IMG/VR virus record: IMGVR_UViG_3300037089_000506
DNA length: 64,000 nucleotides
Origin: a virus
Strand: one strand, 5' to 3'
Positions 18,747-36,083 of this stretch are shown one piece after another (position 1 is the stretch's first letter; each line of letters opens with the position of its first letter). Below the pieces are notes generated by a model. The model saw only the letters and a program-made list of their open reading frames with translations, did no database searches and was not told where the DNA came from. The position numbers and the translations under genes are program-made.

Positions 18747-18860
18747 GCCATCGTGGTGGAAATGGAAATACACTGGGGACTTAACGAGGGTTTTCCTCTA
18801 GAGAATCTTGGTTAATCCCCCGCCTTTAATGGATTGAGGGTTCGACTCCCTCTGATGGCA
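18747..18860 (+). tRNA. tRNA-Leu(TAA) with 29-nt insert (18785-18813) between positions 36/37
   Basis: removing the insert gives GGGGA-CTTAAAA-TCCCC; type II body, A73. Confidence 0.85.
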
Positions 18861-18987: not shown

Positions 18988-19365
18988 ATAGTGGCAAGAG
19001 CAATACCTGAAGCTCGTTATAAACCACAATATTATATATAAACAGAGGGTTAGAGGTAGCGAGAGTAGCTTGGTAGCTGCCTTGAAAAAGTATAAAATAG
19101 AGCTTGTTCATCAAAATTCTTAGTCTGCTATAAACAGGAGAGCAGTTGAAAAGTAGACGATGATGGATACATCAAAGCCATCTGAGGGTTAGAGTGTTAG
19201 CCCAAAAGCCTAGCAATAGGATACAATAGTATAACCTCCATCGTGATACGTGGGACTGCCTAGATGCTCGCTAGGAGGAAGGAACTATAAAATCGGGGAG
19301 TATCACGTAACTACCTTGAATGACAGCAACAGAGGTAGAAGGTGTACGAGAACCACCTTATTTTT

Positions 19366-19436
19366 GGTTCCTTAGAATAGAGGAAGTTCGTAAGATTCTC
19401 AATCTTAAAGCAGCAGTTCAATTCTGCTAGGAACTA
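19366..19436 (+). tRNA. tRNA-Glu(CTC)
   Basis: TAAGA-TTCTCAA-TCTTA. Confidence 0.8.
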
Positions 19437-19441
19437 TTCAA

Positions 19442-19514
19442 GGTCCCGTAGGCGAGCGGCTAAGCCATCAGCCTTTCACGCTGAGGATCGTCGGTTCAAA
19501 TCCGTCCGGGACTA
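19442..19514 (+). tRNA. tRNA-Glu(TTC)
   Basis: TCAGC-CTTTCAC-GCTGA. Confidence 0.9.
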
Positions 19515-20023: not shown

Positions 20024-20800
20024 ATGGAGGATAGTAGGAGTAGAGAAATGGGGAATATGTTACATCAGTTATTGGCCGTGGAGCAAGATTTAGTACAGCA
20101 GTCAAGGAACATTTTGGATGTGGAGTGCAAAAACACCTTCACTAAAAAGCAGGATTTGTTCGATGGTGTACTGAAGAATTACATTTCTTTCGATGCTGCT
20201 GGGGAACAAATTCCTCCAGAGAGTAAAGAAATTGTAACCACAGTAGCAGAGAAGATAGAGTATGCTCAGGGTGCGGTTATCAAGGCCATTGATGCCAGTA
20301 TCAGCAAGGAAGAGACGAATGCTTCTGGTACTGCTAAAGCCCCTCTCATGCTTGATGATGGTACTGACTTTGGTACCCTTTCTGCTACTTCTCTGATTGC
20401 GTTAGAGAAGTATCTTGTCAGGATTAGAGAAGTCTACAAGGACATTCCAACGGTAGACCCTGCTCGTTCATGGACTAAGGATTCTACACAGGCTAGAGCT
20501 ATCTATGTGGCTCCTGTAGATACTAAGTTCCGTTCTATCAAAAAGCTTGAGGTTATCACCAAAGTAGCTGCAACGGATAAGTTCCCTGCACAGACTGAGA
20601 TGGTACAGAACGAGGTCCAGGTAGGTAAGTACGAAACTACCTATACGTCAGGTAGGCTACAGCCTATAGAGAAGTCAAACCTTTTGTCAAAGATTGACAC
20701 TCTGATTCAAGCTGTAAAACAGGCTCGTCAAGCTGCTAATCAGGCACAGGTAATAAACGTCAAGTTAGGTGATAAAATATTCGCCTATATCAACAGTTAA
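20024..20800 (+). CDS. conserved hypothetical protein (LHQLLAVE...IPPES...SG.L...A...AN family)
   Basis: long ORF with biased codon usage; recalled resemblance to an actinobacterial hypothetical family, not verified. Confidence 0.6.
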   Translation: MEDSRSREMGNMLHQLLAVEQDLVQQSRNILDVECKNTFTKKQDLFDGVLKNYISFDAAGEQIPPESKEIVTTVAEKIEYAQGAVIKAIDASISKEETNASGTAKAPLMLDDGTDFGTLSATSLIALEKYLVRIREVYKDIPTVDPARSWTKDSTQARAIYVAPVDTKFRSIKKLEVITKVAATDKFPAQTEMVQNEVQVGKYETTYTSGRLQPIEKSNLLSKIDTLIQAVKQARQAANQAQVINVKLGDKIFAYINS

Positions 20801-21036
20801 ATAAATTGGAGTTACTTCCACCATGGCAGTATTTGTGCTAATCCATGAGGATATTTCGCAATAGCATAAGTATTGCTCTGGGGGGTAACTCCTTAAGAGC
20901 TAGTAGTAGTATCAGTAAATGGGCATACCCGTTAGGGCCGCCCAAGTAGAGTCTACGTAATTCCATCAGTTTATTGCTTGGCAGTTTTCTTAAAGTCTAT
21001 ATCGTGACAGAGGCATTGGCGACAATGATATAATTT

Positions 21037-21130
21037 AACGTAGGCATTGGTTCGAATCCAATCTTTCCCACTGTAAGCTTTATTAAAGAGCTTATTGTGG
21101 GAGAGGAGAGTCGGTGGCAGACTCGGCGTT
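21037..21130 (+). ncRNA. circularly permuted tRNA-like domain (YrlA-like) within a ~430 nt structured 3' region
   Basis: order AC3'-variable-T arm-acceptor3'-linker-acceptor5'-D arm-AC5', all stems paired. Confidence 0.7.
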
Positions 21131-21208
21131 TTTAGTAAAAATCATTGGGTGACTTCGGCCCGAAAGGATACTAGCAGCACTTACAATAGTCTTGAAAACT
21201 ATTAATCG

Positions 21209-21245
21209 GGCCGGGGGAAGGTAAGACCCCCGGTCCTTCTTTTTA
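21209..21245 (+). terminator. intrinsic terminator
   Basis: GGCCGGGGG/CCCCCGGTC hairpin plus T tract. Confidence 0.7.
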
Positions 21246-21258
21246 TTAGACTAATTAT

Positions 21259-21792
21259 ATGAGGTGTAATATGGACTATTTTACATTAAATAACGTGAAA
21301 GTATTTATGACATCAGCTCCGAATAATCTAGATATGGCAGAAATGCTAGGAATGGAAATGGAAGAAAATGAGATTAAATTAGCAATAGTATTATTAGGGG
21401 AAGAAGAATTAAAAAGATTATATGGAGATACTGTTTCTTTATTCAAAGTTTATTCTTCCTATGGAACCAAAGTATTATCCTATCCCATACCAGACTTTGA
21501 GGTTCCTGCTGATATAAGTAAATTTAATCAAGCTGTAGAAACAGTATGTGGTTATATAAAAAATAATAATGTGCTAGTACATTGCTGGGGTGGGCATGGT
21601 AGAACAGGAATTATGACAGTAGGAATTTGTGTGAGAACGGGGATGTCAGTAGAGAATGCGTATGAAATGATATCTAAAAAAAGAAAAATATTAGAAACAA
21701 ATGAACAATTTGAATTTTTATATGACTATGAAGAGTTTTGTATTAAATTAAGGAGTGAATATGATATTAGAGGAACAGCTACAAGTACTTAA
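21259..21792 (+). CDS. Cys-based (CX5R) tyrosine/dual-specificity phosphatase
   Basis: VLVHCWGGHGRTG. Confidence 0.85.
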   Translation: MRCNMDYFTLNNVKVFMTSAPNNLDMAEMLGMEMEENEIKLAIVLLGEEELKRLYGDTVSLFKVYSSYGTKVLSYPIPDFEVPADISKFNQAVETVCGYIKNNNVLVHCWGGHGRTGIMTVGICVRTGMSVENAYEMISKKRKILETNEQFEFLYDYEEFCIKLRSEYDIRGTATST

Positions 21793-22402
21793 TAATTATA
21801 TTGTCCAATTTATTCAGTATATGAAGGACAATAATAGATTTATTGTCTATGACTTGGAAACCAATGGATTTGTAGCTAACCCAATGCCTTCAGTATTATC
21901 AATATCAGCAGAATTATGTAAATTAAACTCCAATAAGACTATATCGGTTATTGATACTTATAATAGATTCTATTATTGTAAAGAGGAATATAACCCTAAA
22001 GCTACAAAAGTAAATGGACTCATTGATGATGAAATAAATAAAAGACGGATTGAAATTTGTGGTAGTTTTGATGATTACACTGATTATTTTTTAGATGACA
22101 TTGCTTCTTTTAAAACCTTTTGTGGTAATACCTCTGTATTCCTTGGATTTAATAATACTGGATTTGATAATATATTTCTTGAGGACTATATGATATTTCC
22201 TCACTCTCTGGATATAATGGTAGTTCAGGCTGCTCTAGAAAATGGTAAGTATAGGAAGCTGAAAGAAGTAGCCCCTGACTATGATGTTATTACTGATGAA
22301 GCAGAATTACATCAATCTTCTTATGATGTATACTTGACTAAAAGTATTTTTAGTAGTATGCTTAGTATGTCAACAGTGAGGATGATTGAACTAAAGGAGT
22401 AG
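21755..22402 (+). CDS. DEDDh 3'-5' exonuclease
   Basis: VYDLETNG, FNNTGFD, H.SSYDV. Confidence 0.8.
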   Translation: MNMILEEQLQVLNNYIVQFIQYMKDNNRFIVYDLETNGFVANPMPSVLSISAELCKLNSNKTISVIDTYNRFYYCKEEYNPKATKVNGLIDDEINKRRIEICGSFDDYTDYFLDDIASFKTFCGNTSVFLGFNNTGFDNIFLEDYMIFPHSLDIMVVQAALENGKYRKLKEVAPDYDVITDEAELHQSSYDVYLTKSIFSSMLSMSTVRMIELKE

Positions 22403-22876: not shown

Positions 22877-22952
22877 GCGAGTGTATCTCCTCACTCTGAT
22901 AAGGTGTTGAAAGGGTAGTAGGTGCAGGGAGGTTCGAGTCCTCCAACTCGCA
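22877..22952 (+). tRNA. D-armless tRNA-Ile(GAT)-like gene
   Basis: GCGAGT/ACTCGC acceptor, CACT-CTGATAA-GGTG arm, canonical T arm; only 8 nt where the D arm belongs and a ~21-nt variable region. Confidence 0.5.
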
Positions 22953-22972
22953 CATTGGGAATTAGATAATAT

Positions 22973-23840: not shown

Positions 23841-23940
23841 GGGACTAAGGCCGATTGGTTTAGGCACCGGCCTTTTTGAATACTTTTTAATAGAGTATTG
23901 AAAAAGCCGGTTGTGGTAGGTTCGATTCCTATTAGTCCCA
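23841..23940 (+). tRNA. tRNA-Lys(TTT) with 27-nt insert (23877-23903) at 36/37
   Basis: removal gives CCGGC-CTTTTAA-GCCGG; canonical D and T arms. Confidence 0.85.
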
Positions 23941-29783: not shown

Positions 29784-29789
29784 TTTTTT

Positions 29790-29890
29790 GAGCCGATAGC
29801 TCCAACAGTAGAGCGGGTGGCTGTAAAATACTTTCTTACGAGAGTACTTTAGTAACCACCTTGTTGTAGGTTCGATTCCTGCTCGGCTCG
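29790..29890 (+). tRNA. tRNA-Asn(GTT) with 28-nt insert (29825-29852) at 35/36
   Basis: removal gives GGTGG-CTGTTAA-CCACC; G73, short variable loop. Confidence 0.8.
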
Positions 29891-30903: not shown

Positions 30904-30980
30904 AAAATAATAATTCTTTATTATTCTCTTGACAAAACTAATTTTATAGTATATATTATCTATAGATAGGAGAAAATAGT

Positions 30981-33261: not shown

Positions 33262-33816
33262 ATGAATTTCATGGAAAGGTTTATAGATTCTCTACATACT
33301 ACTGTAGAGAGATTACAATCTATACTACTTAAATATGATATTCATTTTTGTGTATTAGGTGGAGCTTCATTACCTTATTATGGGTTTAGTAGGACTACTG
33401 AGGACATAGATATATTAGTAGCGAGGGAGGATAAGGAAAAATTATTATTGATTCCTCCTTCATATTTGAAGGATAAATCTAATGGTAGAGGCAGAGTATT
33501 TATGTTGGAGGGTATAACTAAAATAGAAGTTATATATTCTGGGGATAAATTGAATGGTATTAAAGGAAAAGCATACCCTTATCCAGAAGAAATAAGTAAG
33601 AATAATCTTATTGATTTATATTGGTTAGTATATTTCAAGATTGAAGCCCAACTATATAATAAGAGTAGATATTATGATTTTGGTGATGTTAAGAATCTAA
33701 TAAAGGAGAATGATTTGCCTGAGGATTACATGAGTAAATCTACAGAAGATGTTGAGAACACTTATAAAGAGCTTTGGAAAGCTGCTCATGTTCCTACTTT
33801 GTTTAATGTAGATTAG
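33262..33816 (+). CDS. Pol-beta-superfamily nucleotidyltransferase (DUF6036/AbiEii-like)
   Basis: VLGGAS...R.TEDIDILV. Confidence 0.65.
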   Translation: MNFMERFIDSLHTTVERLQSILLKYDIHFCVLGGASLPYYGFSRTTEDIDILVAREDKEKLLLIPPSYLKDKSNGRGRVFMLEGITKIEVIYSGDKLNGIKGKAYPYPEEISKNNLIDLYWLVYFKIEAQLYNKSRYYDFGDVKNLIKENDLPEDYMSKSTEDVENTYKELWKAAHVPTLFNVD

Positions 33817-33817
33817 A

Positions 33818-33893
33818 GGCTCTAGGGTCTGCATGGGGTGGACATCAGCTTGTCACGCTGAAGAACAGGAGGGTTCGATACCCTCTAGAGTCG
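33818..33893 (+). tRNA. tRNA-Asp(GTC)
   Basis: TCAGC-TTGTCAC-GCTGA, G73. Confidence 0.9.
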
Positions 33894-33895
33894 GA

Positions 33896-33968
33896 GCAGG
33901 GGGATGTGGGTTCGACTCCCATGAGTGGTGGTACCGCCCAGTCGTCTAAGTGGAATAGGATTCCCTGC
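33896..33968 (+). ncRNA. minimal circularly permuted tRNA mimic
   Basis: GCAGGGG/TCCCTGC closing stem, GTGGG-TTCGACT-CCCAT T arm, loop-closed acceptor, D arm with AGTGG. Confidence 0.65.
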
Positions 33969-33984
33969 GTTTTTTTATAGATAT

Positions 33985-34068
33985 GCGTCGTTATACCGTA
34001 AGTGGCAGCGGGCCTGACTGTAGATCAGGTGTCGATAGACTCGGGTGGTTCGACTCCATCACGGCGCA
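33985..34068 (+). tRNA. tRNA-Tyr(GTA)
   Basis: CCTGA-CTGTAGA-TCAGG, long variable arm, A73. Confidence 0.9.
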
Positions 34069-34702
34069 CTATGAAAGGTAAGAATTTTAGCGGTAATAAT
34101 CTGAGGAATAATACTAATATATAAAGGAGTTCAAATGAAGTAGATTTCTAATAGAAGCCCTCCTTAATTGTCAGGAGTATAATATATAGTACTGACAAAT
34201 AAAAGGAGAATACAATGAGTGAAATTATTGAACAGACAGTAATTAGGGACTATATTGTTAGTCGTCAAAAGTATGAAGAGTTAAAAGCCCTTCAAATACA
34301 GATCGGAGTTTATGGCAAACTCAATCAAGATGCCATCAATCAATATTACCAAGCTCGCCGCACATTCTATAAAAATAAAGGTATACCTATCCCCTATGAT
34401 GATCCTTATTATCAAAATAATGATAATGGACATTATACCTCACGAGATGTCTATGAAGGATTTGAATTTACAGAAACAAGAGTACCTTATAAAATAGGGA
34501 AGCATGAGGCTCGTTATTTGAATGTTATTTATGGTATTATAAAAGGTAGGGAATATAAAACTATTGAAAAGAAGGTTCGTAAGGGTAATGAACTCAATAC
34601 AGACAATGAATTCTTGCATAAAGGTAATGTCAAATATTATGGACAAAAGTATGGATTATCATCAAAAGAAATTGACATTATTTTATCTAAGGTGGTAGGG
34701 AT

Positions 34703-35065
34703 ATGGTAAAACAAATCATTATTATCAACCCAGATACAGGATACAGCAAAGGTAGGATGATGGCTCAGTGCGCCCATGCATCTATTATGAGTATCCTCCA
34801 TCAAGGAGAGTATGAGGGGAATACTTTTATTATTAGGAATCTGGATGAAGAAATGCTTTATTGGATGAAAGAATCCTTTACAAAAATAGTGTATAAAGCT
34901 AAATCTGAGGATGAGCTAATATCTATTTTAGTTTATTCTAAAGATAAAGGAATCCCTGTTTACCCAATGATAGAGGATGATGGTATTCTTACAGCTCTAG
35001 CTTTAAAGCCCTCTGAAGAATCAAAGTTTTCCTTTCTGGAACCATATAAACTTAGATTAGCATAA
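34703..35065 (+). CDS. peptidyl-tRNA hydrolase, PTH2 family
   Basis: KQIIII...SKGRMMAQCAHAS, KIVYK, TALAL.P. Confidence 0.85.
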   Translation: MVKQIIIINPDTGYSKGRMMAQCAHASIMSILHQGEYEGNTFIIRNLDEEMLYWMKESFTKIVYKAKSEDELISILVYSKDKGIPVYPMIEDDGILTALALKPSEESKFSFLEPYKLRLA

Positions 35066-35303
35066 TCATGGGTTGACATTACTGTAAATATGAAGTAGTA
35101 TAGTAGGGAGGAGTAATCCTCCCTATTTTTTAGGAGTAAGATATGAATCAGGCAGAAAAAGAGTGGATGGAGAAACGATGGCCTCAATTAAAGGCTCTAG
35201 AAGTAGAGCATAAACTAAGAAAAGAAATTTTTGAATGGGAAGAAATAGTAGATAATGAAATCTTTGGAGCAAAGATTGATATTATTAATCACAGTGAGGA
35301 ACG

Positions 35304-35756
35304 ATGGAGAAAACCTTTAAAGGAAGTACCATGATTTACGGTTTTTTTGGTGAGTATAGCTTTTTAAGTAATTTCCATCTTTGTGAAATTCCTTTTGAAG
35401 GGCTCATTTACCCCTCTACCGAATATGCATTTCAGGCTGCTAAAACTTTAGACATTCAGGAACGAAAGTTTATTAGAACGGCTACTACTTGTGGTAAGGC
35501 TAAACGAGCAGGAATGACAGTAACATTACGTTCTGATTGGGAGGGAATAAAAATAGGTATTATGTATGATGTGAATATGACTAAATATGAAACATATCCT
35601 GAGCTTAAGGAGAAACTTCTAGCTACAGGTGAAGAAGAACTTGTAGAAGGCAATACGTGGGGAGATACCTTCTGGGGACAGGTAGATGGAATTGGCAAGA
35701 ATTATTTAGGTTTAGTTTTAATGCAGATTAGAAAGGAACTAAAAGAGGGCCTATAG
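35304..35756 (+). CDS. NADAR family protein
   Basis: FLSNF, STEYAFQAAK, DWE..K..IM, LVEGN.WGD.FWG, N.LG..LM.IR. Confidence 0.9.
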   Translation: MEKTFKGSTMIYGFFGEYSFLSNFHLCEIPFEGLIYPSTEYAFQAAKTLDIQERKFIRTATTCGKAKRAGMTVTLRSDWEGIKIGIMYDVNMTKYETYPELKEKLLATGEEELVEGNTWGDTFWGQVDGIGKNYLGLVLMQIRKELKEGL

Positions 35757-35817
35757 CTCAGTGGTAAAGCACCGTCCTCTAAACACGGGAACTAGGGTTC
35801 AATTCCCTATAGGCTCA
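35747..35817 (+). tRNA. amber suppressor-type tRNA (CTA)
   Basis: complete cloverleaf, loop CT-CTA-AA, C31:C39 mismatch. Confidence 0.75.
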
Positions 35818-35831
35818 AAAGGAGATAATAT

Positions 35832-36083
35832 ATGATAACGATGTACCATTGGTGGGCTTCCTGGTGTATGCCCTGTAGGGTAGCAGAGCCAATATGGCTA
35901 AAATTCAAATCACTACATCCAGAGGTAGAATTCCATGATATTGATGCTGATACTGATGATCCCATTGGTAGAAAATATTCAGTAATGTCTATCCCTAATT
36001 TCATTGCAGAAAAGGAAGACGGAACTACAAAACAGCATTTAGGCGTACCCAAGCTTGAAGATTTAGAGGCATTATTATCCTAA
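35832..36083 (+). CDS. thioredoxin
   Basis: WCMPC, SIP cis-Pro motif. Confidence 0.85.
   Translation: MITMYHWWASWCMPCRVAEPIWLKFKSLHPEVEFHDIDADTDDPIGRKYSVMSIPNFIAEKEDGTTKQHLGVPKLEDLEALLS

What the first reader, a model, noticed from the sequence alone, without database searches (positions are those of the whole stretch)
33896..33968. Second, minimal (73 nt) permuted tRNA mimic immediately after tRNA-Asp
Closing stem GCAGGGG/TCCCTGC, canonical T arm, acceptor GAGTGGT/ACCGCCC (one mismatch) closed by a 3-nt loop, D arm with AGTGG, then a T tract. It has no anticodon, no free CCA end and no extension for Ro binding. It would be released by 3' processing of tRNA-Asp. Inference: a decoy for proteins that read the tRNA elbow (defence nucleases, tRNA sensors).
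Basis: partly seen in the sequence, partly recalled or inferred. Interest (0 to 1): 0.7.

Follow-up and report, generated by a model that had tools for sequence, protein, structure and literature searches.

The report
Back-to-front tRNA look-alike, one lineage only
A large peat-soil phage carries, between two of its tRNA genes, an 80-base insert that folds like a tRNA with a sealed acceptor end and no anticodon loop; it is real, but three sister lineages lack it, so whether it does anything is unproven.

Summary
Window 33896-33968 (+) reads closing helix, T arm, 7-bp acceptor-like hairpin with a GGT loop, D-like arm, closing helix, then G and T7. It starts 2 nt after tRNA-Asp and ends 16 nt before tRNA-Tyr.

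- **Beyond chance:** re-ordered and given a 7-nt loop, it is called a tRNA by ARAGORN at default settings. None of 300 flank-shuffled controls is.
- **No known family:** it matches nothing in Rfam, including YrlA. It has no Ro-binding motif, and no Ro60 gene lies in the 109-kb record.
- **No conservation signal:** it is identical in 13 metagenome contigs of one clonal lineage. Three sister lineages lack it; their Asp-Tyr spacer is 11 nt, 17 nt, or 231 nt with a 69-aa ORF. It is therefore a lineage-specific ~83-bp insertion, and covariation cannot be tested.
- **No parent or relative:** no parent tRNA and no similar sequence was found anywhere I searched.

My best reading (about 0.4) is a tRNA-derived accessory RNA module, co-transcribed with the neighbouring tRNAs and freed by their processing. 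It would be a YrlA-type tRNA body without the Ro handle. The decoy idea is untested. The rivals are a neutral relic of tandem tRNA genes and a tRNA-shaped terminator.

This scan has noted free-standing permuted tRNA mimics on other phage DNA before. I did not check those notes.

The parts
33818..33893 (+). tRNA-Asp(GTC), no encoded CCA; upstream neighbour whose 3' processing would define the element's 5' end
   Evidence: ARAGORN; Rfam tRNA 35.2 bits
33894..33976 (+). lineage-specific insertion of about 83 bp (GA + element + G + T7) into the Asp-Tyr spacer
   Evidence: The spacer is 11 nt in L038, 17 nt in L042 and L043, and 231 nt of unrelated sequence with a 69-aa ORF in L012 and L021
33896..33902 (+). 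closing helix, 5' strand GCAGGGG (tRNA positions 38-44 equivalent)
   Evidence: pairs 7/7 with 33962-33968; present in the MFE and centroid folds, alone and in context
33906..33922 (+). T arm GTGGG-TTCGACT-CCCAT
   Evidence: exact GGTTCGACTCC match; drawn as the T arm by ARAGORN after de-permutation
33923..33939 (+). acceptor-like 7-bp hairpin GAGTGGT-GGT-ACCGCCC, contiguous with the T stem; predicted RNase P site between 33932 and 33933
   Evidence: sequence; ARAGORN drawing; the RNase P site is inferred from the M. smegmatis YrlA precedent
33944..33961 (+). D-like arm GTCT-AAGTGGAATA-GGAT, with A14, A15, G18, G19 and A21 equivalents in the loop
   Evidence: constrained fold; ARAGORN drawing
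33962..33968 (+). closing helix, 3' strand TCCCTGC
33969..33976 (+). G + T7 directly after the closing helix (terminator-like tail or U-rich trailer)
33985..34069 (+). tRNA-Tyr(GTA), downstream neighbour; no promoter-like site between the T tract and it

Best explanation
The element is a genuine circularly permuted tRNA body: a tRNA 3' half, a 3-nt GGU cap, then a tRNA 5' half, with the anticodon loop missing. One lineage of a large (at least 198 kb) peat-soil phage carries it as an ~83-bp insertion in a spacer between tRNA-Asp and tRNA-Tyr that is otherwise 11-17 nt long.

**Origin (inferred).** It most likely derives from tRNA genes. The junction of two tandem isoacceptor tRNA genes has exactly this order and a 2-4-nt gap between the acceptor strands.

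**How it would work (inferred).**
- It is transcribed with the neighbouring tRNAs.
- RNase Z or exonuclease processing of tRNA-Asp, plus RNase P or RNase E cutting ahead of tRNA-Tyr, would free an RNA of about 75-85 nt.
- In that RNA the T arm stacks on the sealed 7-bp acceptor hairpin, and the D-like arm stacks on the open 7-bp closing helix. The result is a YrlA-type tRNA-like module without the Ro60-binding handle.
- The closing helix plus U7 gives it a terminator-like, exonuclease-resistant 3' end.
- Because the acceptor stem is 7 bp, RNase P may nick the GGU cap, as it does in M. smegmatis YrlA, and the enzyme that adds CCA could then extend the new 3' end.

**Function (inferred).** I take it to be an accessory, moron-like RNA that presents a tRNA elbow and acceptor arm without a cleavable anticodon loop.

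**What is shown:** the anatomy, the insertion status, and the lack of the YrlA and Ro features. Transcription, folding, processing and any protein partner are not shown.
For: - **The fold is real.** ARAGORN at default calls the de-permuted sequence a tRNA, against 0 of 300 flank-shuffled controls. Only two such elements exist in the 109-kb record and none in the reversed control.
- **Tertiary-contact positions are kept.** T54, T55, C56 and A58 equivalents in the T loop; A14, A15, G18, G19 and A21 equivalents in the D loop; an A15:U48-type pair is possible.
- **The closing helix looks shaped for this topology.** It is 7 bp, extended by a C-G pair at the 32:38 position. From general tRNA knowledge, real tRNAs keep that position unpaired. 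The helix ends exactly where the anticodon loop would begin on both sides.
- **It is not a fresh local duplicate.** Identity of the de-permuted element to the phage's 20 tRNAs is 27-52%, which is the tRNA-to-tRNA background (mean 44%, max 66%).
- **The thermodynamic gap to the MFE is ordinary.** It lies within the range of this phage's real tRNAs. The element folds as its own domain between the two tRNAs.
- **The slot holds cargo elsewhere.** A sister lineage carries a 69-aa ORF with a ribosome-binding site at the same place, which fits an accessory-cargo site.
- **The phage has another permuted tRNA module.** It lies at 21037-21130, directly after a DUF7873 gene (Pfam E 4e-67).
- **There is a processing precedent.** A 7-bp-acceptor YrlA is cut by RNase P and CCA-tailed in vivo (PMC4201824).
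Against: - The element is absent from three sister lineages.
- It is identical in all 13 contigs that carry it, and those contigs show 0 variable sites in 2.6 kb. No covariation or selection signal can be read.
- No similar sequence was found in INPHARED phages by blastn, in IMG/VR by three k-mers, or in GTDB genomes by two k-mers (the single hit was a chance match in a coding region).
- The D arm is out of register, with a 4-nt linker in place of U8-N9 and two G-U pairs out of four. The acceptor has an A x C mismatch. The predicted T-arm pairing probability is 0.002.
- The neighbourhood holds debris. A truncated 17-codon ORF remnant lies after tRNA-Tyr, and the matching ORF continues in the sister lineage L012.
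- No adjacent partner protein travels with the element. The upstream gene occurs without it in six other contexts.
Confidence: 0.4

Rival explanations
1. It is a neutral relic. On this reading the element is a captured or left-over fragment of two tandem, near-identical tRNA genes, running from one anticodon loop to the next. It has no function of its own, and its helices are complementary only because both halves descend from the same tRNA.
For: - Tandem isoacceptor pairs with 3-4-nt spacing exist in this phage group: Glu-Glu at 19365-19514 and Gln-Gln in L012.
- The YrlA model hits junctions of tandem tRNAs in this genome. Chen et al. warn of the same artefact.
- The element is absent from three sister lineages.
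- It has an acceptor mismatch and an irregular D arm.
- An ORF remnant persists 100 nt downstream.
- No homologue was found anywhere.
Against: - No parent tRNA is found in the genome; identities are at background level.
- Both truncations fall exactly at the ends of the anticodon stem.
- The stem is lengthened to 7 bp by a 32:38 C-G pair that a working tRNA would not have.
- All four helices and the elbow nucleotides are intact.
Confidence: 0.3
2. It is primarily an intrinsic transcription terminator. The GC-rich 7-bp closing helix followed by G + U7 would stop transcription coming from the promoter at 30929-30957 through the ORFs and tRNA-Asp. The tRNA-like interior would be incidental ancestry, or only stabilise the 3' end.
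For: - The helix plus T7 has terminator geometry.
- The phage uses canonical hairpin + T6 terminators elsewhere: 14496, 27619, 35126, 50918, 52797, 60893.
- The closing helix forms in every predicted fold.
- The other permuted module also ends in GCGTTTTT.
Against: - The enclosed 'loop' is 59 nt and branched, so the simple terminator scan does not call it.
- tRNA-Tyr lies 16 nt downstream with no promoter-like site of its own, so efficient termination would silence it.
- Sister lineages have no terminator at this place.
- T6 runs also follow real tRNAs here without ending the cluster, for example tRNA-Val at 29784 with the next tRNA starting at 29790.
- T6-T7 runs are common in this 34.5% GC genome: 56 on the + strand of the window.
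Confidence: 0.2
3. It is a true permuted tRNA gene. Its transcript would be circularised or end-joined, perhaps by the machinery that would have to remove the 27-29-nt inserts in other tRNAs of this phage. It would then be opened at the acceptor loop to give a working tRNA.
For: - The order of the halves is as in permuted tRNA genes of red and green algae (recalled from the literature).
- Several tRNAs in the window carry anticodon-loop inserts: Rfam tRNA hits of 100-114 nt at 18747-18860, 23841-23940 and 29790-29890 (sequences).
- A 7-bp acceptor stem with U at position -1.
Against: - No anticodon loop can be rebuilt. The flanks are GA on the 5' side and GUUUUUUU on the 3' side, and they do not pair with each other or give a U33-NNN-R37 loop.
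- There is no bulge-helix-bulge motif.
- Only 3 nt lie between the acceptor strands.
- The 32:38 position forms a Watson-Crick pair.
Confidence: 0.03

Closest known systems
YrlA (Y RNA-like A; Rfam RF02553; Chen et al. 2014, PMC4201824)
   Same: Same permuted order: stem, T arm, loop-closed acceptor stem, D arm, stem. The tRNA elbow nucleotides are kept. The acceptor stem is 7 bp, as in M. smegmatis YrlA, which RNase P opens and which is then CCA-tailed.
   Different: No Ro60-binding helix or GNCGAAN0-1G motif. No Ro60/TROVE gene in the 109-kb record. No hit to the Rfam model at E <= 10. It is 73 nt, against about 147 nt reported for M. smegmatis YrlA in that paper. It sits inside a tRNA cluster as a lineage-specific insert.
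DUF7873-linked tRNA-mimic RNA
   Same: A permuted tRNA module in the same phage, also ending in GCGTTTTT, and also found by the same strict finder.
   Different: That module is part of a roughly 440-nt RNA directly after a DUF7873 gene, and its acceptor loop is 27 nt. The element studied here is 13 kb away, stands alone, has a 3-nt acceptor loop, and shows no sequence similarity to it.
Junction of tandem tRNA genes ('dimeric tRNA' false positives of YrlA searches)
   Same: T arm, acceptor 3' strand, short spacer, acceptor 5' strand, D arm, in that order.
   Different: Here the two acceptor strands pair with each other, the two outer strands pair with each other, and both outer tRNA halves are missing.
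Circularly permuted tRNA genes of Cyanidioschyzon merolae and some green algae (recalled from the literature: Soma et al. 2007)
   Same: The 3' half is encoded upstream of the 5' half.
   Different: Those genes keep the anticodon loop, have a processable linker between the halves, and have a leader-trailer motif for circularisation. None of these is present here.
Phage T4 species 1 and 2 RNAs (RNA C, RNA D) (recalled)
   Same: Small non-tRNA RNAs encoded within a phage tRNA cluster and released by tRNA processing; function unknown.
   Different: No sequence or structural relation was tested. They are longer and are not known to be permuted tRNAs.

Membership tests
YrlA / bacterial Y RNA | T, acceptor-like and D stem-loops in permuted order | tested here: met
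YrlA / bacterial Y RNA | GNCGAAN0-1G motif or Ro60-binding helix near the 5' end (Chen et al. 2014) | tested here: not met
   No CGAA-containing motif in 33880-33980. The closing helix is only 7 bp and starts 2 nt after tRNA-Asp.
YrlA / bacterial Y RNA | Encoded within about 4 kb of a Ro60 (TROVE) gene on the same strand | tested here: not met
   No TROVE (PF05731) or DUF2828 (PF11443) match in the 109.5-kb record. The record is about 62% complete, so a distant Ro60 gene is not excluded.
YrlA / bacterial Y RNA | Score at or above the Rfam RF02553 gathering threshold (69 bits) | tested here: not met
   No hit over the element even at E <= 10
Functional tRNA | Anticodon stem-loop and a free acceptor end | tested here: not met
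   Not called by ARAGORN or the Rfam tRNA model in its native order. The anticodon loop is absent and the acceptor is closed by GGT.
Permuted tRNA gene (algal type) | Leader and trailer that pair and restore an anticodon loop after joining | tested here: not met
   The flanks GA and GTTTTTTT do not pair or give a canonical loop
Intrinsic (Rho-independent) terminator | GC-rich helix immediately followed by a U tract | tested here: met
   7-bp helix with 5 G-C pairs, then G + T7
Intrinsic (Rho-independent) terminator | Compact hairpin (loop of 3-8 nt) at the end of a transcription unit | tested here: not met
   59-nt branched interior, so the scan does not call it. tRNA-Tyr follows without a promoter-like site.
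DUF7873-linked tRNA-mimic RNA | Lies directly downstream of a DUF7873 gene | tested here: not met
   The DUF7873 gene is at 20024-20800, 13 kb away. The gene upstream of the element has no Pfam family.
Conserved structured RNA (any family) | Compensatory base changes among homologues | not testable with these tools
   All 13 copies are identical and no diverged homologue was found

The most novel reading that the evidence does not exclude
A free-standing, anticodon-less tRNA-body mimic acquired as RNA cargo in a phage tRNA cluster. After release by tRNA processing it either stays sealed, or RNase P opens it and it is CCA-tailed into a two-piece 'tRNA without an anticodon'. It would then titrate host proteins that recognise the tRNA elbow or acceptor arm, such as tRNA-targeting defence nucleases or MenT-type nucleotidyltransferase toxins. 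Alternatively it serves as an extra ligand for the phage's own DUF7873 RNA-protein system. Either way it would be an RNA-only counter-defence module that works without Ro60.
Probability: 0.12. Interest if true: 0.7.

Novelty: new variant of a known kind. Interest (0 to 1): 0.35.

Why it matters
If it is expressed and folded, it would show that the tRNA-like half of a Y RNA can exist alone, as swappable cargo in phage tRNA clusters. That would point to RNA-only mimicry of tRNA as a phage tool against tRNA-directed host defences. It would also give a minimal 73-nt model substrate for asking which enzymes read the tRNA elbow without an anticodon. If it is only a relic, it still documents how permuted tRNA-like sequences can arise from tandem tRNA genes. 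That matters for judging the many 'permuted tRNA mimic' calls in phage genomes.

Tried and rejected
- **Rfam:** at gathering thresholds on the whole window and at E <= 10 on 33700-34200, only the two flanking tRNAs matched and nothing covered the element. The YrlA model on the whole record hit tRNA T arms and tandem-tRNA junctions, not the element.
- **Relatives through the upstream gene in IMG/VR:** none.
- **k-mer searches:** exact k-mers from the T arm/acceptor region and from the D arm/closing helix gave nothing in IMG/VR. They gave nothing relevant in GTDB genomes. The one hit, in Terrisporobacter, is a chance match inside a coding region with no tRNA nearby.
- **attP idea:** I considered that the 5' part is a phage attachment-site copy of a host tRNA 3' half. 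I rejected it because no host tRNA matches, and because the downstream half completes a full cloverleaf.
- **Homology between spacers:** the 91-nt spacer and the 231-nt spacer of the sister lineage show none (score 13 against a shuffle mean of 15.4).
- **Parent tRNA in the same genome:** none.
- **Microdiversity among carriers:** 0 variable sites in 2.6 kb.
- **Family members of the other mimic, for a comparison model:** DUF7873 relatives were not found in IMG/VR with a single-protein query or in 300 sampled genomes of one bacterial class. No model was built.
- **Searching the longer metagenome contigs for Ro60:** those records are not held.
- **Permuted-tRNA finder on a Felix O1-type tRNA cluster (L044, 24 kb, 20 tRNAs):** no hit. 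My finder demands a 7-bp acceptor stem, so it is not a census of looser mimics.
- **Upstream 184-aa protein:** no Pfam, PHROG or PDB sequence match. The fold search is only weakly nucleotidyltransferase-like. I do not claim it is a partner.

Full report
**1. What is there**

The window is the minus strand of a 109.5-kb IMG/VR virus record. The same phage occurs on metagenome contigs up to 198 kb, so it is a large phage, apparently from peat or soil samples. The window is 34.5% G+C. ARAGORN finds 19 tRNAs in it, and the Rfam tRNA model finds several more.

Between tRNA-Asp(GTC) at 33818-33893 and tRNA-Tyr(GTA) at 33985-34069 lie 91 nt with no ORF of 50 aa or more on either strand. Within them the sequence reads:
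- GCAGGGG (33896-33902)
- GAT
- GTGGG-TTCGACT-CCCAT (33906-33922)
- GAGTGGT-GGT-ACCGCCC (33923-33939)
- AGTC
- GTCT-AAGTGGAATA-GGAT (33944-33961)
- TCCCTGC (33962-33968)
- G, then T7 (33970-33976)

**2. Is it more than chance?**

Yes.
- GGTTCGACTCC is an exact match to the T-loop consensus. Such motifs are 15-fold enriched in the window (18 found against 1.2 expected).
- I re-ordered the element as 5' half, an artificial 7-nt loop, 3' half, then CCA. ARAGORN at its default threshold called a tRNA with each of five loops tried. It called none of 300 controls in which the sequence flanking the T arm was shuffled (drawing).
- I wrote a strict finder that requires a 5/5 T stem, a 7-bp hairpin directly after it, a 5-bp closing helix, and ARAGORN confirmation. 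It returns exactly two elements in the 109-kb record: this one and 21037-21130. It returns none in the reversed window, none at junctions of adjacent tRNAs, and none in the other loci fetched.
- In tRNA numbering the loop nucleotides that build the elbow are in place: T54, T55, C56 and A58; A14, A15, G18, G19 and A21; and an A15:U48-type pair is possible.

There are departures from a canonical tRNA:
- The acceptor-to-D linker is 4 nt in place of U8-N9.
- Two of the four D-stem pairs are G-U.
- The acceptor has one A x C mismatch.

ViennaRNA prefers a rod inside the same closing helix (-27.0 against -21.2 kcal/mol, z = -1.2). It gives the T arm a pairing probability of 0.002. However, the 5.8 kcal/mol gap is typical of this phage's genuine tRNAs (mean 5.1; 6 of 19 have a gap of 5.8 or more). 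In its 266-nt context the element folds as a separate domain closed by the 7-bp helix.

**3. Relatives**

The upstream 184-aa gene served as an anchor.
- **Lineage A (carries the element).** Twelve metagenome contigs from several samples carry the element (L002-L011, L039, L040), which with the window's own record makes the 13 copies. They are identical to the window across 2.6 kb, with no variable site. This is one clonal population.
- **Lineage B (L012, L021).** The upstream protein is 92% identical and tRNA-Asp differs at one base. The spacer holds 231 unrelated nucleotides with a 69-aa ORF and a ribosome-binding site.
- **Lineage C (L038).** The two tRNAs are 11 nt apart.
- **Lineage D (L042, L043).** The two tRNAs are 17 nt apart.
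- **More distant homologues of the anchor gene.** They have no tRNAs nearby.

The element is therefore an ~83-bp lineage-specific insertion (33894-33976) at a site that also took up a different insert in the sister lineage. The last 5-8 nt before tRNA-Tyr are loosely conserved in all four lineages.

No similar sequence was found:
- in 50,697 phage records by blastn;
- in IMG/VR by three k-mers;
- in one genome per prokaryote species by two k-mers.

Covariation cannot be assessed.

**4. Origin**

The order 'T arm, acceptor 3' strand, 2-4 nt, acceptor 5' strand, D arm' is what the junction of two adjacent tRNA genes looks like. The YrlA model indeed hits such junctions in this genome, and Chen et al. 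discarded them as false positives. If the two genes are near-identical isoacceptors, both outer strands and both acceptor strands would be complementary by descent. This phage group does have such pairs, 3-4 nt apart: Glu-Glu and Gln-Gln in L012.

Two points count against a fresh, local and purely accidental fragment.
- The de-permuted element is only 27-52% identical to the phage's tRNAs, which is the background level.
- Both ends fall exactly at the ends of the anticodon stem. The stem is lengthened to 7 bp by pairs at the 26:44 and 32:38 positions. The 32:38 pair is a C-G pair that a working tRNA would avoid (this rests on my general knowledge of tRNA).

The neighbourhood does keep debris. 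A 17-codon remnant at 34071-34124 begins an ORF that continues further in lineage B.

**5. What it most likely does**

All tRNAs here lack an encoded CCA and are closely packed, so the cluster is matured by endonucleolytic processing. Cutting at the 3' end of tRNA-Asp and at the 5' end of tRNA-Tyr would free the element.

Its geometry fits a tRNA L-shape with the ends moved to the anticodon side. The T stem runs directly into the 7-bp capped hairpin, and the D stem runs directly into the closing helix. This is the design of the tRNA-like domain of YrlA (PMC4201824).

The closing helix plus G + U7 has the form of an intrinsic terminator. The phage uses canonical hairpin + T6 terminators elsewhere. 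Three observations make me doubt that termination is the main role:
- tRNA-Tyr follows 16 nt later without a promoter-like site.
- Sister lineages have no terminator at this place.
- T runs follow other tRNAs inside this cluster without ending it.

M. smegmatis YrlA is the one YrlA with a 7-bp acceptor stem. RNase P cuts it in the acceptor loop and it is CCA-tailed in vivo. The same could happen here between T33932 and A33933.

**6. Membership**

The element is not a YrlA family member:
- it has no GNCGAAN0-1G motif;
- there is no TROVE or DUF2828 gene in the record;
- it gives no hit to RF02553 at E <= 10.

It is not a tRNA and not an algal-type permuted tRNA gene, because no anticodon loop can be rebuilt. 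It is also not attached to the DUF7873 gene. That gene precedes the other permuted module in this window (Pfam E 4e-67) and lies 13 kb away. So the element works like, or at least looks like, the tRNA half of a Y RNA, without belonging to the family.

**7. Earlier notes of this scan**

Notes on other genomes describe free-standing, anticodon-less permuted tRNA mimics inside phage tRNA operons, and Ro-less mimics. I used them as leads only and could not check them. Within this window I confirmed two things: the first mimic passes my finder, and its upstream gene is DUF7873.

**8. Verdict**

The decoy interpretation is neither supported nor excluded. My odds are:
- about 0.4 for an expressed accessory tRNA-body mimic RNA;
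- about 0.3 for a neutral relic;
- about 0.2 for a terminator as the main role;
- about 0.03 for a true permuted tRNA gene.

Interest is moderate. The kind is known from YrlA, and this scan has seen similar elements. This instance is a singleton with no evolutionary or expression evidence.

Noticed in passing
window 20024-22402: A DUF7873 gene (20024-20800, Pfam E 4e-67) is followed by about 440 nt of ORF-free sequence that holds the other permuted tRNA module (21037-21130). Next come a dual-specificity-phosphatase-like gene (21259-21792) and an RNase T-like exonuclease gene (21755-22402). Together they look like an RNA-processing or RNA-repair cassette.
   Followed up: partly
The Rfam tRNA model calls three of them at 100-114 nt, and ARAGORN calls none. 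The inserts share a TACTTT...AGAGTA-type hairpin. Short introns of this kind are unusual for bacteria and phages.
   Followed up: no
window 33262-33816: The 184-aa protein directly upstream of tRNA-Asp has no Pfam, PHROG or PDB sequence match. Its AlphaFold model (pLDDT 83) weakly resembles small nucleotidyltransferases: MenT1 tRNA-modifying toxin, ANT(2''), TM1012 (Foldseek E 4e-3, TM about 0.4). It occurs without the element in sister lineages.
   Followed up: partly
window 34071-34124: A 17-codon ORF remnant (MKGKNFSGNNLRNNTNI*) lies right after tRNA-Tyr. In the sister lineage L012 the homologous ORF reads on to the contig end. The region is an indel hot spot.
   Followed up: partly
window 34125-34200: A block conserved in lineages A, C and D holds a mini-ORF (ATG AAG TAG) with a ribosome-binding site, and an inverted repeat TTGTCAG...CTGACAA around TATAAT. 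It is probably a regulated promoter or operator for the downstream genes.
   Followed up: no
window 34703-36083: A run of translation- and stress-related accessory genes: PTH2 peptidyl-tRNA hydrolase (34703-35065), a NADAR domain protein (35304-35756), a tRNA with the amber anticodon CTA (35747-35817) overlapping the end of the NADAR gene, and a thioredoxin-like gene.
   Followed up: no
window 22877-22953: An orphan T arm (GGTTCGAGTCC at 22931) sits inside a tRNA-sized stretch with a paired acceptor (GCGAGTG/CAACTCGC). Neither ARAGORN nor Rfam calls it. It may be an aberrant tRNA-like gene just upstream of tRNA-Gly.
   Followed up: no
L038, L042 versus window 33818-33893: tRNA-Asp differs between lineages A/B and C/D, and the differences appear compensatory in the acceptor and anticodon stems. 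For example the acceptor GGCTCTA/TAGAGTC becomes GGCTCCT/AGGAGTC. This is a clean example of covariation in a phage tRNA.
   Followed up: no
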